From positions 64,001-128,000 of the forward strand of contig CAVWVQ010000003.1 of the NCBI GenBank assembly GCA_963758525.1: 64,000 nucleotides of DNA, given 5' to 3'. The notes beneath the pieces are model-generated. The model had not been told where the DNA came from, searched no databases, and saw only the letters and a program-made list of their open reading frames with translations. Of the stretch, positions 29,174-62,839 are shown one piece after another. Each line of letters opens with the position of its first letter. Position 1 is the first letter of the stretch. Source of the DNA: an uncultured Phycisphaerales bacterium. Lineage in GTDB: Bacteria; Planctomycetota; Phycisphaerae; Tepidisphaerales; Tepidisphaeraceae. A program made the position numbers and the translations under genes.

Positions 29174-29235
29174 GGTTAGCCGCGACGCGCAGCGGAGCGC
29201 GTCCGGACGCGCTCCGCTGCGCGTCGCGGCTAACC
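29174..29235. repeat. Perfect 62-bp palindrome
   Basis: GGTTAGCCGCGACGCGCAGCGGAGCGCGTCC|GGACGCGCTCCGCTGCGCGTCGCGGCTAACC. Confidence 0.95.
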
Positions 29236-36062: not shown

Positions 36063-36710
<648 letters not shown>

Positions 36711-36750
36711 TTGTTCTGTGATCTGCAGGAATCCTCGGCGTCCGCGCAAC

Positions 36751-37080
36751 TCATTTCTTTCTGATTCTGGTGCGCCAGAGGAAATCGTCTCGTTTGTTCT
36801 TCCATCGGAGAACCTGGAATCCCCCCACGCAGGAAAACACGAAGCCGAGCAGTCCGCCGAGACTGCAAATCAGTGCGGCGATGTTTTCTGGCAAACCGTA
36901 CCTCATCCCAACGGTCCGGGAGATGGTGGCTGCCAACCCTTCACGCACGTCTGACGCGTTGTACAGGACCAGCAGACCCCCAACGCAGGTTGCCAGCCAC
37001 CAACGCGGCATCGCAGGCGCGGGTTCCGATTGATAATTCAGGATCTGCGGATCGCCGTCCGATGGAGGGTTCTGGGGCAT
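36751..37080 (-). CDS. Small 2-TM membrane protein with N-terminal ILNY motif
   Basis: PQILNYQSEP then two hydrophobic segments; TAAAGT 6 nt upstream. Confidence 0.55.
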   Translation of the reverse strand: MPQNPPSDGDPQILNYQSEPAPAMPRWWLATCVGGLLVLYNASDVREGLAATISRTVGMRYGLPENIAALICSLGGLLGFVFSCVGGFQVLRWKNKRDDFLWRTRIRKK

Positions 37081-37383
37081 CCATGAACTTTAGCATGACG
37101 TCGCTACTAATCCTGCGGCCGCTGCTTGGTCGATCACGGACGGACTTGCCAGTGAACACCGCCGCCGGCAGCGTTACGGTTCAATCTACCTGGATTGACC
37201 AGGGGCAAAGCTATGCGCAACCGGCACTGCTGCACACGATAAGACGCCGTGTCCGGTTATACCGGAGACGTTGCATAACGAAGAGGACTTTATCCAGCGT
37301 GCGGAAAAACCGTGAGCAAGCCGGATCGATTCAACGCACGCTGGATAAAGTCCTCTTCGTTAGCCGACACAGGGACGCCGATC

Positions 37384-37686
37384 GTGAAATTGTACATTCT
37401 CATTCGCGAGTCGGTGCCGATCGGATTTGCCGTGCTTGGTGCGGCGCATGCGTCGCTCGCGTGTTACCTGAAGTTTCGCGACGCGCCCAAGGTGGCGACT
37501 TGGCTTTCGGGTCCGTTCTACAAAGTCGTCTTCAAAGTCACCGATGAGGAGTTCGAGAAGGCGAAGGCTTTCGAGGACCACGTCGTCCTTACCGAGTCCG
37601 CGATGTCCGCGCAGGAGGTCGCGATCGCGTTCAAGCCGCGCGAGGAATGGCCCAAAGCCTTCAAGTTCTACCGGCTGTTCCCGTAG
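37384..37686 (+). CDS. PTH2-like (peptidyl-tRNA hydrolase II fold) cassette protein
   Basis: KLYILIRESVPIGFAVLGAAHASLA...WL...FYKVV. Confidence 0.65.
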   Translation: MKLYILIRESVPIGFAVLGAAHASLACYLKFRDAPKVATWLSGPFYKVVFKVTDEEFEKAKAFEDHVVLTESAMSAQEVAIAFKPREEWPKAFKFYRLFP

Positions 37687-37690
37687 TGTC

Positions 37691-37786
37691 GGCTAACCCA
37701 ACACTGCACTGGACCGGGGCCTCGATGGTGCTTACGATTCGAACGCTGGTCGTCGGCCCCGGCCAGTGAATGTTGGTACGTTATTG
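37691..37786 (+). other. attC-like site
   Basis: GGCTAAC..CCAACACTGCACTGG-A-CCGGGGCC...GGCCCCGGCCAGTGAATGTTGG..CGTTAT: imperfect palindrome with bulged bases, right after a stop codon. Confidence 0.8.
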
Positions 37787-37801
37787 CCGCCACGAGATCG
37801 C

Positions 37802-38347
37802 TTGATTGACCCCTACCCTAAATACCAGTTCTTCCCTAGCACCTCGCCCCCGCCGGTCTTTGCGTCCCGCATTGCAGAAGTGTTCGCGAAAAATCGAGCT
37901 TCAATCGATACCGTCGCTTTGAAGAAGGGGCTTACGAGCAATGAAGTGCTCGCGAAGCTTCGCCCTGATCTCGTCGATCTCGGGTTCGCCGTCGAGGCAA
38001 GCAAACTCGACGCGGACAAGCTTCAGCGTCCGGTTTATTTCGGCTTACAAGGTGACCCAACGCTGCGATATCAGATTGACGCTTACCAATCGGAGTGGCG
38101 GTGTGGCTTAGAAATTGAGGCCGGAAGGGCTTGGATGGGTAACGCTGTGTACCGCGACTTGATCCAAGCAATGGTGATGGTGGATGTTGATGTGCTGGCG
38201 CTTGCTGTGCCGATCGCTTACAAATTTAACAACTCAGGGAAGCAGACAATCAGCAACGATTTCGAGAATACGCTAGCCGTGGTATCGGCCGTTTATGGGC
38301 ACTCCCGGGTAAAGATTCCCTATGGCCTATTACTGATCGGCTATTGA
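37802..38347 (+). CDS. Putative PD-(D/E)xK / restriction-endonuclease-like cassette protein
   Basis: YQIDAY...LEIEAGRA...RDL motif arrangement; no methyltransferase nearby. Confidence 0.55.
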   Translation: MIDPYPKYQFFPSTSPPPVFASRIAEVFAKNRASIDTVALKKGLTSNEVLAKLRPDLVDLGFAVEASKLDADKLQRPVYFGLQGDPTLRYQIDAYQSEWRCGLEIEAGRAWMGNAVYRDLIQAMVMVDVDVLALAVPIAYKFNNSGKQTISNDFENTLAVVSAVYGHSRVKIPYGLLLIGY

Positions 38348-38472
38348 GATCGGGCATAACCAGACTGTGGACGGCCCGCGTCGCGGCTGTACACTCTTCT
38401 AGACCTTGGCCCGCTTCGCGCCTCGCGTCGCCGGCTACAGGGCGTCATCCGTTCCCCGCAGGAGCGTTCCCC

Positions 38473-38907
38473 GTGACCCCCGCCAAATCGGATACCGAAC
38501 TGCGCCGTCGATTCAACGTTCCACTCGACCGCCTTACCGCGCGCCAAGGCATCGACGCGATGCTGGCCTTTTACGCCGATCAACGCGCTGACGGCGTCCA
38601 TGTGGACGAAGATGGCGACATGCTTCTATTCCAATGGGGCGTGTACAGCTTCTCCGGACCGCCGACCTTTCAGCTCAATCTTACTCGTCAATTTATCTTG
38701 CCGGACGAGGACGAGCCGTACCAGCTTTCGCTGACCTTTCATCATGCGCCTTCTGATCAAATGAAAGCGTTGAAGTCAGGAAATCGCTGGTGTCATTCGA
38801 CCGATGGTCTGCCGGAGTTCAGGACTTTCATTGACAGTTCGGCAGCAGTCGCAGTAGCACTTGGTTTAAAGCCGATCAGAGTGGATCTCACCTTCAGCCC
38901 GTGTTGA
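38473..38907 (+). CDS. Hypothetical cassette protein
   Basis: AGGAG RBS then GTG; DGDMLLFQWG...LTRQF motif. Confidence 0.65.
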   Translation: MTPAKSDTELRRRFNVPLDRLTARQGIDAMLAFYADQRADGVHVDEDGDMLLFQWGVYSFSGPPTFQLNLTRQFILPDEDEPYQLSLTFHHAPSDQMKALKSGNRWCHSTDGLPEFRTFIDSSAAVAVALGLKPIRVDLTFSPC

Positions 38908-39159
38908 AATCATCTACGATCGGGCCTGCGGGAGTATCTGTCTTGCCCAAATAACGCACGGAGCAAGCCGGTTCTGGCGTTCAGACGACGCGGGAGCGGG
39001 AATACCCACGTTTCTCTTGGGGCTCTTTTGTATCAGTGTTTCGGCTCGGTGGCTGTGGAAGGCGTCCCACGATGGATTCGGCAGATAACCAGCCGATCCC
39101 ACCACGGCGGGTCTTCGACTCTGGACGGGCCCACGTCGCGATTGGTATTTTCATTAGAC

Positions 39160-39809
39160 GTGCCGCTGCAGTTCGAACGCTATCGCGACCAATTTCGCCG
39201 CTGGCCAGCCGAGGGCCGTCACATCCTCGCGCAGTTTGATGCCGAATCGATCGTCATCTATCAGGCATTTCGGCCCGAGATCGCGCAGTATGCCGTCGCT
39301 CACGGCGCGTTCGGGGGGAGGGATTCAGCTATTCCCGAATGAGCTGGATCAAGCCAAACTTCCTTTGGATGATGTATCGCGCGGGCTGGGCGACGAAGCC
39401 AAAGCAAGAAGCGATACTGGCCCTTAGAATTTCGCGGCGATTCTTCGATACGCTGCTCACAGACGCGGTGGCTTCCAGCTACGACTCAACGCGCTTTGAA
39501 AGTCACGGGGAGTGGCAAAAGGCACTTGCTCGGTCGAACGTACGCTTGCAGTGGGACCCGGATCATGATCCGAGCGGCACACCACAGCTGCGACGGGCGA
39601 TTCAACTTGGTCTACGCGGCGAAACCCTTGCACAGTTTGGAAAGCGGGAACTGCTTGAGGTGATCGACCTGACTTCAGTCGTCACCGAACAACGCAGCCG
39701 AGTGGAGGAGGATCAAGCAAACCTCCAAATCCCCGCCGAACGTGCGTATCGGCCCTTGAACGAGAAGGCCGCGGATAACGTGGGGCTGGCGAGTGAGCCT
39801 GCTGAATAA
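39160..39809 (+). CDS. DUF4291 family cassette protein (frameshift in G-run near 39315)
   Basis: ILAQFDAESIVIYQAF, RMSWIKPNFLWMMYRAGWATK, VRLQWDPDH...RRAIQLGL; stop TAA lies within GAATAAC. Confidence 0.85.
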
Positions 39810-39841
39810 CTTCACGCTGCAATGGTCCGGCGGGACACCCA

Positions 39842-41218
39842 CTAAAGCCCAGCAAGCTTCTGATACAGCGCGGCGGCGGTTCTGGTTCCGCAATGCAGGG
39901 CATCCAAATCGAACTTTTCGTTCGGCGAATGGACGCGATCATCCGGCAGACCGAAGCCGACGAGCAGGGTGTCGATGTTCAGTTCTTTTTTGAACAGCGC
40001 GACGACGGGGATGCTGCCGCCCTCGCGGATCAAGGTGGGAGCTTTGCCGAAGCCGATTTCCACGGACTCGGCGGCGAGCTGCATGGCTTTGCCCTCGCGG
40101 GGAACCAGGACGGGCCCGGCTAATCCGTGCCGGGCGAATTCGATTGTTACGTTTTTGGGGCAGCGATCTCTCAGAGCCTTCTCATAGGCGGTGACGATCT
40201 CCATCGGGTCCTGATCTGGGACGAGCCGCATGGAGACTTTGGCGGACGCGACGGAGGGGATGATGGTCTTGGCTCCGTGGCCCTGGTAGCCGCTGGTCAG
40301 GCCGTTGATGTCGCAAGTGGGACGTGCCCAGCGGCGTTCGAGCGTGGAGTACCCGGCTTCGCCGGAGGCGCTGGTCAGGGCGAGGTGCTTGAGCATTTCC
40401 TTTTCATCGAAGGGCAGTTTTTGCCAGGCGGTGCGCTCTTCCTCGGCCAGCGGGCGGACGTGCTCATAGAAGCCGGGGATGTTGACGGTGCCGTCGGGGT
40501 TGTGAAGGGTGGCGAGCAGTTCGCAGAGCACGTTGGCGGGATTCGGGACGGCTCCGCCGTACATTCCGCTGTGGAGATCGTGATCGGGGCCGGTGAGGAA
40601 GACTTCGGTATAGACCAGCCCGCGCAGGCCGTAGGTGATGGCGGGGACGCCGCGGGCGAATTGGCCGGTATCGCAGACAAGCACGATGTCGGCGGCAAGC
40701 TCGGCGCGATTGGCGGCGACGAATCGTTCGAGGTTTTCGCTGCCGATTTCCTCTTCGCCTTCGATGAGCATCGTGAGATTGACGGGAAGGCCGCCGGACT
40801 CCTGCCAGACGGAGATGGCTTCCACGTTCGCCCAGACCTGCCCTTTGTCGTCAACCGCGCCGCGGGCATAGACCGCGCCATTGCGAACGGCCGGCTCGAA
40901 AGGGGGCGACGTCCACTTGTCCAACGGCTCGGGAGGCTGGACATCGTAATGGCCGTAGAAGAGGACTGTCGGGCGGCCGGCGCGATGCTCGTTTTTTGCC
41001 AGGACGATTGGGTGTCCACCCGTGGGGCGGACTTCGGCTTTCAGCTTTGCGGAACGAAGACGCTCCACGAGCCAGTTGGCGCAGCGCTGCATCTGCGGGG
41101 CGTGATCGGGTTTGGTGCTGACGCTGGGGATTTTCAGGAATTCGATCAGGCCCCCCAGGGTCTGGTCGCGGCGGTCGTCGATCGACTTCAGGATGGATTC
41201 AAGTTTGTCGTCGGGCAT
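39842..41218 (-). CDS. M20 family dipeptidase
   Basis: YGHYDVQP, RGAVDDKGQ, EGEEEIGS, DLHSG.YGG, GGSIP, HSPNEKF. Confidence 0.93.
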   Translation of the reverse strand: MPDDKLESILKSIDDRRDQTLGGLIEFLKIPSVSTKPDHAPQMQRCANWLVERLRSAKLKAEVRPTGGHPIVLAKNEHRAGRPTVLFYGHYDVQPPEPLDKWTSPPFEPAVRNGAVYARGAVDDKGQVWANVEAISVWQESGGLPVNLTMLIEGEEEIGSENLERFVAANRAELAADIVLVCDTGQFARGVPAITYGLRGLVYTEVFLTGPDHDLHSGMYGGAVPNPANVLCELLATLHNPDGTVNIPGFYEHVRPLAEEERTAWQKLPFDEKEMLKHLALTSASGEAGYSTLERRWARPTCDINGLTSGYQGHGAKTIIPSVASAKVSMRLVPDQDPMEIVTAYEKALRDRCPKNVTIEFARHGLAGPVLVPREGKAMQLAAESVEIGFGKAPTLIREGGSIPVVALFKKELNIDTLLVGFGLPDDRVHSPNEKFDLDALHCGTRTAAALYQKLAGL

Positions 41219-51100: not shown

Positions 51101-54100
51101 GTGCCCCAACACTTGGAACCCTCGATAGCTGAAACCGCCCCGCCGCCTGATCCGGGCGAAACCATCGCATCGGTGGATTCGCCGCCCACGGCGCCAAGTC
51201 TTCTGCTGCCTTCGCGGAGCTATATCGTCGGCCGGGAGATCGCCCATGGCGGGATGGGGTCGGTTCTTCACGCTCAGGACTGCAAGCTCGGACGCGACGT
51301 GGCGATGAAGGTGATGCGGCTTTCGTCTGCCGCCTCGGAAGAGGCGCGATCGCGGTTTATCCGCGAGGCGACCGTGCTGGCGCGGCTGGAGCATCCCAAC
51401 ATTGTCCCGATCCACGAGCTGGGATGGGACGCGGAAAACCGGCTTTATTACACGATGAAGCTGGTGCAGGGCCGCACACTCCAGGCCGTCCTCAATGGGC
51501 TGCGAAATCGCGATGCGGATTTCATCAGCTACTACACACTCGATCGCCTGCTGACGATCTTCCGCAAGATCTGTGATGCCATGTCGATGGCTCATGCCAG
51601 AGGCGTCATCCATCGCGATCTCAAGCCCGACAACATCATGGTGGGTGAGTTTGGCGAAGTGCTGGTGATGGATTGGGGATTGGCAAAGATCCAGGCAGAC
51701 GCCCGGCAAGTCGCCGAAGAAGCGGCGCTCAAGGCGGACGCGGGATCAGCCGAGCGATTCCGGGAATTGGCTGATTCAGAACTGAGCAAATCCGCCGGTC
51801 TGACCCTCGACGGCGCGGTGATGGGCACCCCGCTCTATATGTCGCCCGAGCAGGCCAGCGGGCACCTCGCGGAGATCGACCAGCAGTCGGATATTTTCTC
51901 ACTCGGCGGAATTCTCTATGCGCTGCTGACGCTGCATGCGCCGGTGGATGGGAAGACGGCTGATGAAATCATGAGCCGGATCAAGGGCGGTCAGATTCTT
52001 CCGCCGACGGTTTACAACGTCACGACCAAGTCGGGCACAAGCGGTAGAGAAAAGGACGCAAAGGCGGCTGATCCAAAGAAGTTCCAGCCTCTGCCTCATT
52101 GTCCGCATGGGAAAGTGCCCTCGGCCCTTTCAGCGGTGACCATGCGGGCGCTGTCGGTGGACAAGTCCAGGCGCTACAAGGCGGTCGCCGAACTGGCGGC
52201 TGACGTCGAATCGTACCAGGGCGGATTCGCCACCAGCGCCGAGCGCGCCGGGTTGCTCACGCAACTGCGCCTGCTGATTCAGAGGCACAAGCGCGAGTTT
52301 GGCGTTGCTTTCGCCGCATGGCTGGTTATCACCGCACTGGCGGTCTGGTTTGTGATCAATCTTCGCGCCAGTGAGCGCGAGACGCGCCGCCAGGCCGACA
52401 TCGCCCGGCAGAACGAGTTGCAGGCGGTTGCAGAAACGGCCCGTGCGACGGGTGCCGAAAAGCAAGCCAGGGATGAGGCCACCCGCGCCACGGCGGCCGA
52501 GCACAGCGCAAAAATATCCGAAGCTGTTGCCGTGCAGGAGCGGGAATCGGCCCGGCAGTCACTGGCGAAGTCAGCGCTATCGCTCGCCGAGGCAGCGCGG
52601 CGGGATGGAAATGGCCCGGAGATGCAAGCCGCACTGGCCGACGTGCCGGAAGATCTGCGGGACTCCACCTGGCGATATCTGCTGTCGCAATCCGACACGT
52701 CGATCGGCGTTGTCCACAGCAGCGGCCCGACGGTCACTATAGAAAACGCCGCCGCCGTCCCGCGACGCCCCAGCGTCTTCGTTATCATTGAAAGTAACAA
52801 TCATGTCTCAATGGTGAACGTGCATACCGCAGAGCGTCTGCTGGAGTTTGAGACTCCCGTCAAGCGTGGAGGCTACGACCGCGACATCGCCGTATCGGCC
52901 GATGGCCGGTTCATCGCCATCACCCGTCACTCGGAGAAAGATTCCCAGATCGTCATTCACAGGCGCAGGATGGGAAGATCTTGCAGCGGTGGATGGCGCC
53001 TCTTTCCACCGGACGACTGGAGCTCAGTCCGGACGGCAAGTACCTGATTCAAGAGGAAAGAGGTCGGAAACATCTGAGCGTTTGGAACGCCTCCGAAGCA
53101 AAACTGGCGTGGGAATACGCGCCGGCTCAAGATCCGAACAGTGTCTTCGCGACATTCATGTCCGATGGCACGCACGTCATCACCCACGGGCACGGCGATG
53201 GGTTTCGCGTGGTCGACATCGACGATGGCACCGTCGTCCGCAGCTTCAACAGTCGATTAGATCCGAAAAGCACGTTAGCTCTTTCAGACAATCTCTTTCT
53301 GGCCAGCGAAGCTGGATATGGTCGCGTCACGCTGTTCGACCCGGGCGGCAAGGTGATTTGCGACTTGCGGGCTGGCACCAACAGCCTGAATTATCTGGGC
53401 TTCGCCCCCGGTGGCGAACAATTGGTGACCGCGGTCGGACTCCTTGATGGCCGCCAGGAAATTTCCGTTTGGCGCACCGCCACCGGTGATCGAATCGGCT
53501 CCCTGTTTGGCGGCAGCGGTGAGCTTCGGCACGCGGCCATTCACCCACTCACCGGCGAGCTGGTGATTGTCGGGCCTGCAACTCGCGTCTGGAGCCTCAC
53601 CGGGAAACCGGCAACCTGGAATTTTGCCTCTGGCAAATGGGGACTCCGCCCGACCTTCTGCGGATCAGATGACCTGCTCTTTGTCAGCCGCGGCTCTGAG
53701 CGCCCTGGATTAATTCAACTCCAGCCCAACAGCTCGGTGCCGCTTTGGACGCCTGATGGGCCTCCCGTCAACAGAACCGAGGTGAGCGGGGACGGAAAGG
53801 TTGCCATCTTATTTAATGACACCTCAGTTAAAGAGGCGCTGAATTTTGAGGTTCTGCACAGCCTGGGTCCCAGCCCGCAAATCGTCCGAACCGGCAAGCT
53901 GACGCGTGGCTATGACTTCATGCGCCTCAGTCGCAACGGCAGTCGCGCGTTGGCGCACGACCGGCGCAGCACCATGATTGACCTGATTAATTCCGAAACT
54001 GGAGACGTGCAGATCAAGTTAAACGGCACGGGCGTGAAGCGCTGGCGAGATGCGGGCTGGGTTGACGGCGAGCAAGAGGTTGTCGGCCTGGTGACAGCAA

Positions 54101-55113
54101 TTGCCGAGCGTGGCGACCCGGTTTCAGAAGAACGGATCGTCCTTTGGGATGCCGCCACCGGCAACGTCATCAAGTTCGTGAAAAACCGCACACCAATGGA
54201 TGTGCTGGCGATCGCGCCCGATGCGAAGCGGTTTGCCGAGGCCGGCACCGACAAAATAGTGCGCATCCGCGATTCCGCGACGCTGGCGGTGCTGCGCGAG
54301 TTCCGCGTCCATGATGGCCCGATTACGGCCATGGCCTGGCACCCGGGCAAACCGATTATCGCCACCGGTTCATCGGACTGCACCATCCGGCTATGGAATG
54401 TGGAGACAGGTCGAATGCTGGAAGAGTTTGGGGGTTCACTGACCGCGCCGCTTAGCCTGACGTTCAGCCCCGGCGGTCAGCGGCTTGCCTGCCTCTCGGA
54501 CCGCACGCGAATCTGGGATCCGCAATCGCTCAGCGACAAACGGGCGACGACCCAGCCGGCCGACGCCTGGGAAGACCTCATGGCAACCCTCACTCCCGAG
54601 ACCGTCGAAGGCATCGGAAATGGCTGGCGCCTCGAGGGAGGCGCACTGTTCTGCCCCGAAAAAAAACCCACCCCCCTTTCTCTGCCGGGCAGCTTTGCCG
54701 GAATCAGTTATCAGGTCCGGGTCCGGCTGATGCAGCTCGAGGCAAAAGATTCCTTCAACCTTCATCTTCCCGTCGGCAGCCGGGCGGTGAATTTCATACT
54801 CGATGGATTCCCAACCGCGGGCTATTACACCGGACTCAGTCACGTGAAAGGCAAGAATGCCGACAATCAGACCGGATCCGTACATGGAAAAATGATCAAG
54901 GACACGGAGCAGCACGAACTGGAAGCGACCGTCCGCCTATTTGGCGCCAATGCCGTCATCAGCATCACACAGGACGGCCAGTATCTCTATGAGTGGTCCG
55001 GCCCCGAATCCGCCCTGACTGACACTTTTCCTGCAACCCCCGGCGCCATAGGCGTCGGAACGCATGCCGGCGGGTGGGTGGTGTATGAGGTCAAGGCAAG
55101 ACGACAACCGTAG
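51101..55113 (+). CDS. Hanks-type Ser/Thr kinase with TM, coiled coil and WD40 repeats (frameshift near 52960)
   Basis: GGMG.V, VAMK, HPNIVPIH, HRDLKPDN, DWGLAK, GTPLYMSPEQA; later HDGPITAMAWHP...ATGSSDCTIRLWN. Confidence 0.9.
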
Positions 55114-56612: not shown

Positions 56613-56696
56613 GGGCTGGACTTTCCGCTATCAGACAAATGTTTGCAAGACTGGTTTTCCAGACAAAGTCTGACGAAAAACCAAAAGGACCAGGAA

Positions 56697-58012
56697 ATGC
56701 CCGATCCGTTCTATCGATTCTTCCGGACGATCGGCCGCCGTTGGGAGAACCTGGGGCAGCGCAGACTCTCTTCCGGGAGGCCGCCGTCGGTCAATGGAAC
56801 GGCTCTGTGTGACCAGGCCCGCGAGGCGCTACGCCAGCATGTCATCGACACACTGGTGCCGCGCTGTCTCGACGAGGAGTACGGCGGGTTTCTCGTCGAC
56901 TTCGACGACCGGTGGAACGCCGCCGGGCGCACGACAAATCTCTCGAGCACGCCGCCCGCACAACCCGCGCGTTCGCGCTGCTCGACGAGGCTTATCCCGG
57001 CCAGGGATACGACCGCTTCGTCCTCCACGGCTGCAAGTTTCTCACCGAAGCGATGTGGGACCACGCGCACGGCGGCTTCTACGCCCGCGTTGACCGCGCA
57101 GGCCGCCCACGATGGGAAGGATTGAAACATCCGCACGCGGTGACGTATGCCGCCGAGACGTTTCTGCTGGCGGCGCCTTACCTTCCGCCAGACCAGGGCG
57201 TGATGTGGGCGAACCGCGCCCTCGACTGGCTCGACCAGGTTGCGTGGGATCCAACCCACGGGGGCTACTGGGGCTCTTTCCGGCGGGACAATGAGCGCTA
57301 CCCCGACGGAGCAAAGCTGCCGACGCCAGATGGGCTGGACATCTTCGGCCTGACGCCCGGCTTCAAGGAGATCAATACCCAGGGCGACGCCATCGAGATG
57401 CTGACTCGCTTCCAGGCGCGTCGCCCCGACCCGCGCCACGCCGCACGGCTCGACTGGCTGGTCGATCTCGTCACCCAACGGCTGGTGCAGCCCGGCGGGG
57501 TCCTGCCGTACCGCTACCTGCGCGACTGGCGGACGTCTCCGGATCTGATTCGGGTCGGCTATCAGTTCCTGATGGCCCGCCACCTGCACCAGGCCGTTGC
57601 GGGAAAAGGGATGTCCAGCGTTACAACCACGGTGTGCGACATGGTGGATTTTTGCCTGAAATGGGCACGCCATCCCTCCGGCGGATTCTGCTACGCCGTC
57701 ACATCTGAAGGTAGAAGCTGGCCATCGAGCAGCCCCTCCTGCGACCAACGCCAATGGTGGGTGCAGATTGAAGCCGTCTACACGCTGCACGTGCTCGCCA
57801 ACGATCCCGCGCTGGAACCCGCGCAGCGGGCACGATACCACCAGGCCCGCGATGCGGAATGGGCATTCCTGCAAAACGTGTTCTTCGACAATCGCCACGG
57901 CGGCGTCCGCGCCGAGCCCCTCGACTTCACGGCCTCATCGCCCCTCAAAATGCACTGCTGGAAGGACCCCGGCCACGAGGTTGGCGCGTTCATCGCGTTA
58001 AGCTGTGTCTGA
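56697..58012 (+). CDS. AGE family epimerase (cellobiose/GlcNAc 2-epimerase-like; frameshift near 56930)
   Basis: LDEEYGGF, WDHAHGGFY, WDPTHGGY, QWWVQIEA, WKDPGH. Confidence 0.8.
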
Positions 58013-58014
58013 AA

Positions 58015-58304
58015 CGCTATGGGGATTGTATCGATCTCCGAAGCGCTGTCCCACTCGATGCGAAGAACCGGGGGTGCAAGCACCGCCCAGCGTTCAACCC
58101 AACCGCTATGCACCGGTCCGGGAGGCCCGCTTCTTCTCCAATAGCTGGTCGGCGCCGGCAAACGCCGAGGGTGCTCGCACCCTCGGTCTTTTCGAAACCG
58201 AATGCAGGAATGCGACGAGAAGCTGCGCAGCTGGATGTCCTCGATCAGTCGTTGCCGAAGTGCCGTCATCAAACGCTCCTGTAAAAGAAGGGCCTGATCC
58301 CCTT
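58015..58304 (-). mobile_element. Relic of an integrase-associated (IS91-like) element, copy 1
   Basis: About 265-bp direct repeat of 60536-60811; AGGAG + MTALRQRLIEDIQLR (N-terminus of a tyrosine integrase); CAATCCCCATAGCG at the distal end. Confidence 0.6.
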
Positions 58305-58447
58305 AATTTCCCCCCCCTTAATTTTTCGGGTCAGGACCGATCAAACCGGTTTCCTTTTTTGGCGGGGACGGCAAGCAGTTGTAAACGAGCCGCCTGATCG
58401 AGAGTATGGTTTGGCGCGACGGAGCCGAACCTTCGGAACCTGCAGCC

Positions 58448-60432
58448 ATGAAACCTCACCGCATATTGTCGCTTCTGTCCATCGTTTTCATTGTTGTCTC
58501 GCCGCTGTCGGGCCAGGAAGCGATAGTTGGCAAGCCGGAGATTTTCCCCGATGCGACGGCGAAAGCCGGCGACAATCCGGCGTTTATTGATAAAGCCGGC
58601 ATCGCCCTGGCCGAGCCTTTTGATCTGCGACAGGTGCGGCTGCTCGACGGGATTTTTAAAGCCGCCCAAGTGGCGGACGAGAAGTTTCTGCTCTCGCTCG
58701 ATCCCGACCGCCTGCTGCACAACTTTCGCATCAATGCCAAACTCCCTTCGACGTCCATGCCTTATGGTGGATGGGAAGCTCCGGGTTTCGGCATCCGGGG
58801 GCATTTTACAGGCCATTACCTCTCGGCCTGCGCGGAGATGTATGCATCGACCGGCGACGGAAAGTTCAATGACCGGGGCAGGTACATGGTGGCTGAACTC
58901 GCAAAATGCCAGGCGGCGATGGGGACCGGCTATCTGTCTGCGTTCCCAAGCAGCGTGTTTGACCGCATCGAAACCAAGTCCGCTGCCGGTTCTTCCGCGC
59001 CATACTACGCCGTGCACAAAATCATGGCGGGCTTGCTCGATCAATACCACTACTGTGGCAATCAGCAGGCCATCGCGGTGCTCTGCAGGATGGCGGACTA
59101 CTTCAAAGGCCGCCTTTCCAGACTGACGCCGGACCAGATCGAGTCTGCATTGTTCACCAGCAACGCTGGTCCTCAGCCCCGTCATGAGATGGGGGGCATG
59201 TCGGAAGTCATCCACAACTTGTACGCCGTCACGGGCAAGCCCGAATATTTGGAATTGGCCAATACGTTCGATCGCGCCTGGTTCCTTGACCCGCTGGCAA
59301 ACGGTAAGGATCAGTTAAGTGGTGAGCACGCCAACACGCACATCCCCGAGGTCACCGGGTTCGCCCGCCGGTACGAGGTGACCGGTGACGAGCGCTATCG
59401 CCACGCGGCCGAATTCTTCTGGACGCAGGTCACGCGGCATCATTCCTACGTCACAGGCGGCAACAGCCGGGGCGAAGTGTTTTTGAAGCCGGATGAAGAA
59501 GCGAACGCGCTTCGCGATGACACCGCCGAGACATGCAACGTCTACAACATGCTCAAGCTCACGCAGCATCTGTTCACCTGGAAAGCGGATGTCCCCACCG
59601 CTGATTATGATGAGCGCGCCATTTACAATCACATTCTCAGTTCGATCGATTCCGACAGCGGCGCGATGGCCTACTACCTGTCGCTCAAGCCGGGTCACTA
59701 CAAGCTCTATGGAACGCTCGACACCGCCTTCTGGTGCTGCACGGGCACCGGAATAGAAAATCACGCCAGGTACGGCAACTCAATCTACTTCCACCACGCG
59801 GACGCTCTCTGGGTGAATCTCTTCATCCCCTCGCGACTGTCGTGGGAGGAGAAGGGTGTCTCGCTGATCCAAAACACCAATTATCCGGCCGATGGTCAGT
59901 CCACGCTTACGTTCACCACCGCACGACCCACGCGGCTGAAGCTGCTGCTGCGATATCCTGGCTGGGCCAGGCTGGGAGCGACCGTCAGCATCAATGGTCA
60001 GGAGCAGAGGGTCACCGAACCACCTGGAACATTTATTTCCATCGATCGAGCCTGGCAGAGCGGGGACGAAATCACGCTAAACATTCCCCTTGAGCTGCGT
60101 CTTTATCATCCGATCGATAACGCAAGGATGATCGCGATCATGTATGGCCCCGTCGTCCTCGCCGGCACCTCGGTCGAGCCGGCATCTCACACGATGACAA
60201 AAGCGCCGACCATCGCGCCTTCTTCAAGGAACCCGACCCAGCCGCCCCAATTCTCTCGGGCGACAGCAGCAATCTCGCTTCATGGATCAAGCCCGTTGCG
60301 GGCGAACCACTGCACTTCACCACAGTGAGCGCCGGGCAACCCAACATCATTCCGCTGAGACCCTTCTATGAAATTCATCACGACCGCTACACGGTCTACT
60401 GGCATTTCGTCGACTCCAGCCAGGTAAAGTAA
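58448..60432 (+). CDS. GH127 beta-L-arabinofuranosidase-like protein (frameshift near 60165)
   Basis: YGGWE, GHFTGHYLSA, HEMGGM, HANTHIP, ETCNVYNMLKL, FWCCTGTGIEN; shifted tail ends RYTVYW. Confidence 0.92.
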
Positions 60433-60535: not shown

Positions 60536-60811
60536 CGAAGCGCTGTCTCACTCGATGCGAAGAACCGGGGGTGCAAGCACCGCCCGGCGTTCAACCCAAC
60601 CGCTATGCACCAGTCCGGGAGGCCCGCTCATTCTCCAATAGCTGGTCGGCGCCGGCGAACGCCGAGGGTGCTCGCACCCTCGGTCTTTTCGAAATCGAAT
60701 GCAGGAGTTCCACCGAGTGCGCCGACAAGTTGCGCAGCTGGATGTCCTCGATCAGTCGTTGCCGAAGTGCCGTCATCAAACGCTCCTTAAAAGAAGGGAC
60801 CTGACCCCCTT
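60536..60811 (-). mobile_element. Relic of an integrase-associated (IS91-like) element, copy 2
   Basis: Direct repeat of 58039-58304; MTALRQRLIEDIQLRNLSAHS. Confidence 0.6.
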
Positions 60812-61208: not shown

Positions 61209-61532
61209 ATGAGGAGGAATGCCATGAAGCTTCCCAATCACCCCACTCTGCTGCGGCGGATGCGGGACGCCAGGGTCAAGGAACTTGTCCCGCGATGTCC
61301 GCCCCTGGCCGCATCCCTTGGCACGCAACGCGGCGGCGGCTGCCAGTTGACCCTCAAGCGCCGCGGCAAGACCCGTACGGTCTACGTCCCCAAGGATCTC
61401 AAGGATGAGGTGGAGGCATGGGTGCAGGAACATCGGCGGCTCAAACGTCTGCTGCAGGAGATCACCAATTTGCAGCTGGCCCTGATCCAACTGCACCGGA
61501 CCGACAAAGCCCGGCGCGCCGGCAGGGTTTAG
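61209..61532 (+). CDS. IS accessory protein (DUF6788-like)
   Basis: QLTLKRRGKTRTVYVP...EVEAWVQEHRRLKRLLQEI. Confidence 0.7.
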   Translation: MRRNAMKLPNHPTLLRRMRDARVKELVPRCPPLAASLGTQRGGGCQLTLKRRGKTRTVYVPKDLKDEVEAWVQEHRRLKRLLQEITNLQLALIQLHRTDKARRAGRV

Positions 61533-62839
61533 ACCTGGGCGCGACACTGGCCAGGACGGTCAGCCATTTCTTCCCCGATCTGTTCCAATGGCTCGGGGAA
61601 GTGGGCGACAAACGCGACCAGGACGCCATCACTTATGGCCGGCGGTTCCTGACCTGGATGGGCCTGATGCTCTTCCTGCTCAAGCTCGGCTCGCGCCGAA
61701 GGCTGCGTTTTGAGCTGGACACGCCCGAGGCGCTGGCCAATCTCAATGCGCTCTCCCGCGCAGAGCAGGAGACGATGGCCCACTCCGACACCCTGAACTA
61801 TTTCCTGGGGCGGGTGCCCGCGGCGTCTTTGCCGCTGCTGCGGCGGAAAATGGTCCAACGCCTGATCCGCATGAAAGCCCTGGACAACGGCCGGCTCATG
61901 GGCCACTTCCTGGTGGTCTTCGATGGCACCGGGCAACTGCGTTTCAACCAGCGTCATTGCCCCCAGTGCCTGGAGCAAAAGCACGGCGAGACGACGCTCT
62001 ATTTCCACAATGTGCTGGAGGCCAAGCTGGTCACCCCCGAAGGCCTCGCCATCTCCCTGGAAAGCGAGTTCGTCGAGAATGCCGATCCCAAGGCCAGCAA
62101 GCAGGACTGTGAACTGAAGGCTTTTGCCCGCCTGGCCAAGCGGCTCAAGAAGAGCTATCCCCAATTGTCGCTGTGCCTCTGTTTCGACGCCCTCTACGCC
62201 AACGGCACGGCGATGGACATCTGCCGTAAAAACTGCTGGAAGTATTTCATCACCTTCAAGGAAGGATCGATGCCGGCTTTCTGGCAGGAATATCAGAGTC
62301 TTCTGGCGATGTGTCCCAAGAACCGCAAGACCCAAAGAACCGACGACGGCGTCCGCCAAACCTTCGCCTGGGTCGGACAATTGGAACATGTCGACGACCA
62401 GAAGCGGCGCCACCGCGTCAACGCCTTCCAGTGCCGGGAAAAGCTCGACGGCCAAACCCGCCTCTTTGCCTGGCTCACCAACTGGTCGGTCAACGCCGAC
62501 AGCGTTGCGACCCTGGGCAACCGCGGAGGACGGTGCCGCTGGAAAATCGAAAACGAAGGATTCAACCTCCAGAAGAACGGCGGGTTCAACCTGGAGCATG
62601 CCTACAGCATCGGCTCATTGCAGATCAAGAACTTCTACATCCTGTTGCAGATCGCCCATCTGATCCTGCAACTTGTCGAACGCGGCAGCCTGCTGACGCG
62701 ACAGGCCAAGCAGCTCTTTGGCTCCCTGGCCAATCTGGCCCGACGCCTCGCCGAAAGCATCCGCAACGTCCTGATTGCCGCCGACGCCACCGACCCGACC
62801 CGCGCCGCCAAAATCCAGATACGGCTCAATACCTCCTGA
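61418..62839 (+). CDS. DDE transposase (start uncertain)
   Basis: VVFDGTG, KQDCELKAF, CFDALYA, RWKIENEGFNLQKNGG.NLEH. Confidence 0.9.
   Translation: MGAGTSAAQTSAAGDHQFAAGPDPTAPDRQSPARRQGLDLGATLARTVSHFFPDLFQWLGEVGDKRDQDAITYGRRFLTWMGLMLFLLKLGSRRRLRFELDTPEALANLNALSRAEQETMAHSDTLNYFLGRVPAASLPLLRRKMVQRLIRMKALDNGRLMGHFLVVFDGTGQLRFNQRHCPQCLEQKHGETTLYFHNVLEAKLVTPEGLAISLESEFVENADPKASKQDCELKAFARLAKRLKKSYPQLSLCLCFDALYANGTAMDICRKNCWKYFITFKEGSMPAFWQEYQSLLAMCPKNRKTQRTDDGVRQTFAWVGQLEHVDDQKRRHRVNAFQCREKLDGQTRLFAWLTNWSVNADSVATLGNRGGRCRWKIENEGFNLQKNGGFNLEHAYSIGSLQIKNFYILLQIAHLILQLVERGSLLTRQAKQLFGSLANLARRLAESIRNVLIAADATDPTRAAKIQIRLNTS

What the first reader, a model, noticed from the sequence alone, without database searches (positions are those of the whole stretch)
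37273..39835. Integron-like cassette array without integrase (CALIN) in a planctomycete
Seen: between adk and the M20 peptidase lie four short, same-strand, unrelated, more AT-rich ORFs. Each boundary has a palindrome starting ..TAAC near a stop and ending GTT (or ATT) just before the next start: 37273-37365, 37691-37786 (best, with bulged bases), 38354-38457, 39083-39159. A left half-site (GAATAACTTCACGCTGCAATGGTCCGG) at 39804 is cut off by the convergent peptidase gene. Known: attC sites have RYYYAAC...GTTRRRY ends and extrahelical bases. Inference: a decaying cassette array assembled by an IntI encoded elsewhere.
Basis: partly seen in the sequence, partly recalled or inferred. Interest (0 to 1): 0.72.

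Follow-up and report, generated by a model that had tools for sequence, protein, structure and literature searches.

The report
Decayed cassette array, transposon-scar head
This is a small, partly broken row of integron gene cassettes far from the genome's integrase gene, which is a common kind of thing; its first hairpin is not a normal cassette site but a mirror-symmetric copy of a jumping gene's end, likely a scar left by two such elements.

Summary
The CALIN call holds, but only two of the five 'attC' boundaries are complete attC sites. A model built from 15 attC sites elsewhere in this genome hits 37691-37786 and 38354-38457 (about 45 bits, bottom strand only). Sites 39083 and 39804 are left halves. 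An IntI with attI and an array lies on contig C1; one window cassette has an 86% identical copy there. Another is an attC-flanked cassette in a different genus. No intI or attI is near the window.

Site 37273-37365 is not an ordinary attC. It is a perfect 28-bp palindrome without bulges, derived from the 3' end of an IS91-type recombinase-plus-transposase element that sits in this genome's arrays like a cassette. Of 37 such ends, 35 are asymmetric and 2 are symmetric: this one, and one that starts at a gene's stop codon. It is likely a recombination scar.

CALINs are common. The scan has already noted attC-seeking IS91 elements in at least 31 other genomes. Only the symmetric form adds anything.

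The parts
36063..36710 (+). adk (accessory adenylate kinase after ppk2); left boundary, not part of the array
   Evidence: Pfam ADK; close homolog in 1 of 24 same-family genomes
36751..37080 (-). 109-aa orphan ORF, hydrophobic, opposite strand; possibly the remains of a leftward cassette
   Evidence: no family over cut-off; found in 0 of 140 relatives; no attC at its end
37268..37279 (-). left junction of site 1: reads G|TTATG on the minus strand like a cassette start; read on the plus strand it also resembles an R'' box
   Evidence: the same 12 nt follow the element end in L093/L094; only 11 open codons precede the TAA on the plus strand
37276..37362 (.). site 1: perfect 28-bp inverted repeat with a 31-nt loop; symmetric form of the 3' end of an IS91-type recombinase+transposase element; loop is in reverse orientation
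   Evidence: z -10.3; minus strand 86% over 79 nt to the C2 element end and 93% over 87 nt to L093/L094; loop orientation scores 38-42 against 13-15; alignment A3
37384..37686 (+). cassette 1 ORF, 100 aa, PTH2-like (weak); cassette runs from G|TT at 37359 to G|TT at 37780
   Evidence: PF01981 E 3e-4, below cut-off; cassette 5' end complements its own R'' over 12 of 12 nt
37691..37786 (+). site 2: intact attC with R boxes, unpaired spacer and two extrahelical bases
   Evidence: model R1 44.9 bits, bottom strand only; z -6.1; a short-read contig covers 37564-37795 with no difference
37802..38347 (+). cassette 2 ORF, 181 aa, predicted BglII/BamHI-like restriction endonuclease with no methylase beside it
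   Evidence: ESM Atlas 0.97-0.98 to BglII-type clusters; no Pfam, NCBIfam, PADLOC or PDB hit; 88% homolog is an attC-flanked cassette in G008
38354..38457 (+). site 3: full-length but damaged attC (5-nt deletion at L'', several mismatches)
   Evidence: model R1 44.4 bits; 71-76% to C1 attC sites; z +0.58
38473..38907 (+). cassette 3 ORF, 144 aa, no known family; second copy in the C1 integron array
   Evidence: 86% nt over 518 bp to C1:210088-210605; 86% aa; Atlas best score 0.78, uninformative
38925..39082 (+). stump of cassette 3's R'' box (homology to C1 stops at 38934), joined to an ORF-less remnant of another cassette
   Evidence: side-by-side with the C1 copy; no long ORF
39083..39151 (+). 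site 4: left half of an attC, right arm missing
   Evidence: nhmmer positions 2-52; 78% over 78 nt to a likewise truncated site at C2:265638-265713
39160..39809 (+). cassette 4 ORF, DUF4291, split by a frameshift at the G run 39313-39318 (real, or an assembly error)
   Evidence: PF14124 positions 1-33 and 41-180 lie in two frames
39804..39839 (+). site 5: left half of an attC, cut off just before the peptidase stop codon
   Evidence: 80.6% over 36 nt to C2:271179-271214
39842..41218 (-). M20 peptidase; right boundary, core gene
   Evidence: Pfam; present in 24 of 24 same-family genomes

Best explanation
This is a decayed cluster of integron cassettes with no integrase nearby (a CALIN) whose cassettes were likely joined by the IntI type found on contig C1, and whose first hairpin is a symmetric copy of an IS91-type element end, likely the scar of recombination between two oppositely facing copies. 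Shown: two complete attC sites of this genome's own attC family, two half sites, cassette boundaries at G|TT, one cassette shared with the C1 array, and the origin of site 1 in the element end. Inferred: IntI folds the bottom strands and joins cassettes at G|TT (established integron mechanism, not tested here). IS91-type elements or their mini-copies landed at G|TT sites in both orientations. Their 18-bp arms are then direct repeats, so a deletion between them removes both bodies and leaves the outer arm on both sides. Later deletions removed the attC of cassette 3 and the right halves of sites 4 and 5. Only cassette 2 still lies between two attC sites of the usual type, and one of these is damaged, so the array is likely mostly frozen.
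For: Model R1, built from 15 attC sites outside the window, shows strong covariation: 43 cells changed on both sides against 12.8 in shuffles. It hits sites 2 and 3 at E about 1e-12, bottom strand only; the next hit in the window is 15 bits. IntI scores 338.8 bits against a cut-off of 265. attI-like DNA occurs at 3 array heads on C1 and C2 and not in the window. Cassette 3 has an 86% copy in the C1 array. Cassette 1's 5' end complements its own R'' over 12 nt, as do 5 of 5 C1 cassettes checked (10-13 nt). The cassette 2 homolog in G008 is a cassette with different attC sites. Site 1 matches element ends. 35 of 37 distinct ends carry the element's inner motif on the left; 2 are symmetric. The two symmetric sites have opposite loop orientations, which are the two outcomes that a crossover in the left or the right arm predicts.
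Against: No element body or reciprocal junction survives next to site 1. No backward-landed element of this subfamily was found: by my reading, 19 of 31 distinct 5' ends follow an attC or an element end in forward orientation and 12 have unidentified flanks; one search gave no strong reverse-orientation attC at those ends. No empty site was seen, because gene order beyond the peptidase differs in each of the 5 relatives compared. The C1 intI is frameshifted as assembled. No read covers site 1 as a whole. IntegronFinder itself was not run.
Confidence: 0.75

Rival explanations
1. Same CALIN, but site 1 became symmetric by fold-back template switching in a single backward element end (one arm copied onto the other); cassette 1 was then inserted at the new G|TT.
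For: Needs only one element. The loop is in reverse orientation. The stem is perfect and would fold back readily. It would make site 1 an actively used target.
Against: Complementarity stops at the A after GTT, and the two flanks are unrelated. The loss of the element body still needs a second event. L094 has the loop in the other orientation.
Confidence: 0.2
2. The array is a piece of a larger integron moved by rearrangement or inversion, rather than one built in place at a secondary G(A/T)T site.
For: It lies at a synteny break. The C2 array retains attI and an intI stump, so arrays here do lose their integrase. An inversion between two element ends gives the same symmetric junction. Cury et al. 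list this route.
Against: No attI, intI remnant or reciprocal junction within C3:84-120 kb. Only one of four cassette proteins occurs elsewhere in the genome. This rival concerns origin only and is compatible with the CALIN call.
Confidence: 0.3
3. Site 1 is an assembly or polishing artefact of a long-read genome with many copies of the same hairpin.
For: The assembly carries indel errors: 5 of 27 conserved genes tested are split across frames. The hairpin pattern has 11 places in the genome. No contig spans site 1.
Against: Its loop is unique in the genome and closest to metagenome elements. Neither flank is element body. An independent metagenome contig has the same symmetric form.
Confidence: 0.07
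4. The hairpins are REP-like palindromes or terminators and the ORFs are ordinary accessory genes; no integron is involved.
For: The genome has 270 perfect inverted repeats of 22 bp or more. Homologs of cassettes 1 and 2 also occur without attC (G147, G091).
Against: Strand-specific model hits, cassette end complementarity and a shared cassette.
Confidence: 0.02

Closest known systems
[quoted passage not shown]
   Same: Two or more attC sites, no nearby intI, small, cassettes of unknown function, IntI elsewhere in the genome. Loot et al. (bioRxiv 10.1101/2022.09.11.507474, passages) count 2961 CALINs in 21,105 genomes, 1362 of them with only two cassettes.
   Different: Headed by an IS91-derived symmetric hairpin. 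In this attC family the first bulged base on the bottom strand is C, where the sites mutated by Nivina et al. carry G16.
IS91-family elements with an upstream tyrosine recombinase (ISShvi3; ISAzo26 and ISSod25 recalled or taken from scan notes, not from a paper I could read)
   Same: Recombinase plus Y2 transposase (NF033538, PF04986, PF14319, PF00589). [quoted passage not shown]
   Different: Here only the end hairpin is left, and it is symmetric. In this subfamily the end has an unbulged 18-bp stem with a 1-by-6 spacer, whereas distant relatives end in attC-shaped sites by my reading.
Engineered attC mutants without extrahelical bases or with a paired spacer (Nivina et al., PMC5027507, passages)
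   Same: Deleting the bulged bases can let both strands recombine at similar rates, so cassettes can enter in either orientation.
   Different: Site 1 is natural and lacks both features. The paper says the unpaired spacer avoids perfect hairpins and supports efficient, one-way recombination, so site 1 may be a poor substrate.
attC-targeting parasites: group IIC-attC introns and IS1111-attC elements (PMC8876359 and PMC9229058 passages)
   Same: Mobile elements that use cassette arrays as landing sites.
   Different: Those insert into or beside an attC and carry none of their own; the IS91-type element brings its own attC-like end.

Membership tests
CALIN | At least two attC sites clustered on one strand | tested here: met
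   Sites 2 and 3, 663 bp apart, 44.9 and 44.4 bits with a genome-specific model
CALIN | No intI nearby | tested here: met
   tblastn over C3:84-120 kb, best E 0.07; the only IntI over cut-off is on C1
CALIN | Detection by the IntegronFinder attC model | not testable with these tools
   Model not available; own model R1 used instead
attC (site 2) | AAC/GTT R boxes, unpaired spacer, L-box stem, extrahelical bases, strand asymmetry | tested here: met
attC (site 3) | Same features | tested here: inconclusive
   Homologous and full length, but 5-nt L'' deletion and z +0.58
attC (site 1) | AAC...GTT ends around a hairpin | tested here: met
attC (site 1) | Extrahelical bases and unpaired central spacer | tested here: not met
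   Perfect 28-bp arms, 0 bulges; 11.7 and 11.0 bits on the two strands
attC (sites 4, 5) | Right arm with R' box | tested here: not met
attC (all sites) | Recombined by IntI | not testable with these tools
   Needs an excision or insertion assay
IS91-type recombinase+transposase element end (site 1) | 18-bp stem followed by the 6-nt spacer and G|TT | tested here: met
IS91-type recombinase+transposase element end (site 1) | Inner end motif and element body on one side | tested here: not met
   Replaced by a second outer arm, so it is a derivative and not an element
Complete integron (C1 locus) | IntI with adjacent attI and attC array | tested here: met
Complete integron (C1 locus) | Intact intI reading frame | tested here: inconclusive
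   Frameshifted as assembled; one low-depth short-read contig for each of the two copies has one more base at that place
BglII/BamHI-like endonuclease (cassette 2) | Profile or structure match | tested here: inconclusive
   Language-model match only; no HMM or PDB hit; not folded

The most novel reading that the evidence does not exclude
Cassette-mimicking IS91 elements make new recombination sites. Landing backwards at a G|TTA that overlaps a stop codon, then collapsing to a symmetric hairpin, gives a gene an attC-like site exactly at its stop. That would seed new cassettes and two-directional arrays. Site 1 would be such a seed for this CALIN. L094, where a DUF3592 gene ends at the TAA of the same symmetric hairpin (168 open codons, against at most 91 for the 35 ordinary ends), would be a cassette being born.
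Probability: 0.12. Interest if true: 0.8.

Novelty: new member of a known kind. Interest (0 to 1): 0.3.

Why it matters
As a CALIN it is routine: 26 of 141 genomes of this order have an IntI, and small CALINs are common. It is a clean example of a satellite array sharing an attC family and a cassette with a distant integron, and it carries a probable anti-phage nuclease. The symmetric IS91-derived hairpin matters only if it recombines. It would be a natural site with no strand preference, and a testable route to how attC sites get attached at stop codons, the cassette-creation step that Cury et al. call an unknown mechanism.

Tried and rejected
- A strict geometric attC scanner missed sites 2 and 3 and several known sites; it was replaced by profile and covariance models.
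- An exact 19-nt scan of 185,579 genomes gave 7 hits; none showed a hairpin or a nearby transposase.
- A viral scan gave 27 hits; 0 had a stem of 10 bp or more.
- The element-end pattern was found in 2 of 141 genomes of the order (G000 and G112). Repeats are often unassembled, so this does not show absence.
- Empty-site search: long regions from 10 of the 24 family genomes with the peptidase and 3 adk loci showed no adk-peptidase adjacency, no cassette ORFs and no convincing attC (1 weak 17.7-bit hit in L051).
- No sigma-70-like promoter was found in 36600-40000; this says little for this phylum.
- No RNA holder was listed. Short-read contigs cover only parts of the array, not site 1 as a whole or the DUF4291 frameshift.
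- PADLOC gave no real hit for 5 proteins. Cassette 3 stays unassigned.
- The genome-wide model search scored only 150 of 5651 candidates, so 22 sites is a lower bound.
- The Shewanella mobile-element paper that I recall describing ISSod25 was not held; nothing here rests on it.
- Searches for a description of symmetric IS91-derived attC sites listed none by title or abstract start; one search returned 0 papers. The library lacks most subscription journals, and no supplements were read.
- Rejected: that the C2 tyrosine recombinase is a second IntI. It scores 193 against a cut-off of 265 and sits directly before an IS91 transposase.

Full report
Setting. The window is G000:C3:64001-128000 of a 6.47-Mb, six-contig genome. 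The region lies between an accessory ppk2-adk pair and a core M20 peptidase. A PSCyt1/PSCyt2/PSD1 gene nearby fits a planctomycete; I did not place the genome otherwise.

Observation. Folding the bottom strands gave z = -10.3 for site 1, -6.1 for site 2, and about +0.6, +0.6 and -0.1 for sites 3, 4 and 5. To test attC membership without circularity, I aligned 15 sites from arrays on C1, C2 and C3:3035 kb, none from the window. Their stems covary: 93.6% of cells pair, and 43 cells change on both sides against 12.8 in shuffles. The model built from them hits site 2 at 44.9 bits and site 3 at 44.4 bits, on the bottom strand only. The best other hit in 64 kb is 15.1 bits, and site 1 scores 11.7 and 11.0 on the two strands. 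Site 3 has lost five bases at the L'' box. Sites 4 and 5 are left halves.

Cassettes. Intact cassettes in this genome start at G|TT with 10-13 bases complementary to their own R'' end (5 of 5 checked on C1). Cassette 1 (PTH2-like, weak Pfam hit) shows 12 of 12. Cassette 2 shows 5 contiguous and 8 of 12. Its 181-aa product resembles BglII-type restriction enzymes by language-model features only. An 88% identical homolog in G008 is a cassette between other attC sites; homologs were found in 4 of 140 relatives. Cassette 3 is 86% identical to a cassette of the C1 array; the match stops at 38934, inside the R'' box, so its attC was deleted and an ORF-less remnant joined on. Cassette 4 is DUF4291, split at a G run. 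Homologs of cassettes 1 and 2 also occur without attC in G147 and G091.

Integrase. One IntI passes the TIGR02249 cut-off, at C1:197972-198829, followed by attI-like DNA and an array. attI-like DNA occurs at three array heads and not in the window; no intI remnant lies within C3:84-120 kb. The gene is frameshifted near its 5' end, as is a truncated second copy. This is likely an assembly error. Five of 27 conserved genes tested are split across frames in this assembly, and one low-depth short-read contig for each copy carries one more base at that place. G082's IntI has an in-frame insertion at the same position. The evidence is thin (depth 2-3), so present activity is open. IntI was found in 26 of 141 genomes of the order.

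Synteny. The peptidase is in 24 of 24 family genomes sampled and this adk in 1 of 24 (the unpublished G004 enters these tallies only). In long regions from 10 of those genomes and in 3 adk loci, the two genes were never neighbours and no cassette ORF was present. Gene order beyond the peptidase differed in each of five relatives compared, so no empty site could be seen.

Site 1. A perfect palindrome alone means little here: the genome has 270 with arms of 22 bp or more. Its sequence identifies it. The arms recur at 11 places in G000, at the 3' end of a 2.5-kb element on C2 encoding a tyrosine recombinase and an IS91 transposase and of a roughly 290-bp mini-copy present eight times in the C1 and C2 arrays. 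These elements begin at G|TT, mostly right after an attC, and end in an inner motif, an unbulged 18-bp stem, a 6-nt spacer and G|TT. The same end occurs in metagenome relatives and in G112, and the stem covaries. Site 1's minus strand is 86% identical to the C2 end and 93% to L093/L094, with its loop reversed. It has the outer arm on both sides and no inner motif. Among 37 distinct ends collected from G000, G112 and the 79 metagenome loci, 35 are asymmetric and 2 are symmetric. The second symmetric site, in L094, has the loop forward and begins at the stop codon of a DUF3592 gene.

How it likely arose (inference). Two element ends facing away from each other share their arms as direct repeats. 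A deletion or inversion crossing over in one arm leaves outer arm, loop, outer arm. The loop orientation depends on which arm is used, and both outcomes are seen. I put this at about 55% for site 1, fold-back copying at 25%, and artefact or other at 20%. Against it, no backward-landed copy of this subfamily turned up: by my reading, 19 of 31 distinct 5' ends are forward after an attC or an element end and 12 are unassigned, and one search added none. Scan notes on other genomes report backward landing in R'' boxes, which I could not confirm here. The clean cassette 1 boundary at 37359 does not prove that the symmetric site ever recombined, because a forward element landing in front of cassette 1 gives the same junction. 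From Nivina et al. (passages), a site without bulged bases would lose strand preference, and a paired spacer would likely lower efficiency.

Comparison and verdict. The array meets the CALIN definition (Cury et al., passages) and is of the commonest size class (Loot et al., passages). It works like a satellite store of cassettes for the C1 integron and is mostly frozen. Site 1 works like a possible two-way recombination site but fails membership as an attC. An IS91-like element forming a cassette-like structure is noted in PMC9229058 (passage), and 38 earlier scan findings in at least 31 genomes hold the search words for such elements. I found no description of the symmetric form in six searches, and the scan's index had no look-alike of site 1. 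Verdict: a real, ordinary CALIN with one unusual scar; interest 0.3.

Noticed in passing
G000:C2:272500-274989 (L028:2501-4990, minus strand): Full IS91-type element (tyrosine recombinase plus Y2 transposase) shaped like a cassette, inside an array. The two genes read as one 676-aa frame, with apparent single-base losses at the junction.
   Followed up: yes
G000:C2:267999-276910 and C1:203955-204240, 209249-209536: About 290-bp ORF-less mini-copy of that element, 8 copies at 96-100% identity, each placed like a cassette, one pair in tandem. It has an AT-rich middle that could be a promoter (not tested).
   Followed up: partly
G000:C1:202099-203460, 207393-208754; C2:268779-270140: Group II introns (TIGR04416) inserted backwards 5 bases into the mini-element's 5' end, directly after a small hairpin, rather than into the R'' side of an attC.
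   Followed up: partly
G000:C2:277723-277868: Second array head with attI and only the first codons of intI: a CALIN formed by integrase loss.
   Followed up: partly
G000:C1:205970-206422: Duplicated intI 5' part plus attI inside the C1 array, next to an ORF (205255-205947) that looks like a REP-associated transposase by recall.
   Followed up: partly
L094:824-1414: DUF3592 gene whose stop codon is the TAA of a symmetric element-end hairpin, followed by an IS91-type element; no cassette-type 5' end was seen upstream.
   Followed up: yes
L136, L137, L139, L143, L144, L145, L147: Distant relatives (39-41% transposase identity) end in canonical-looking attC sites after the same inner motif, by eye; minimum-energy folds recovered the full stem clearly only in L137.
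   Followed up: partly
G112:C5:424900-430400 (L187): Array with five element 3' ends and three 5' ends; no IntI over cut-off was found in this 82%-complete genome.
   Followed up: partly
window 58013-58290 and 60540-60800 (minus strand): Two short remnants of a related IS91-type element (recombinase start and inner end motif) flanking one gene; not at attC sites as far as the model shows.
   Followed up: no
window 29175-29234: Perfect REP-like palindrome of a family with many copies genome-wide. It starts with GTT and ends with AAC, the reverse of an attC, and could mislead a reader.
   Followed up: partly
G000:C3:2143223-2143705, C3:3035378-3036103, C2:258117-258627, C3:158520-158611: Further isolated single cassettes or element ends scattered over the genome.
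   Followed up: partly
window 51101-55113, 56643-58012, 58406-60430: Several long genes appear split by frameshifts, in line with indel errors in this assembly.
   Followed up: no
window 61209-62839: Two-ORF insertion sequence with a weak DDE transposase match.
   Followed up: no
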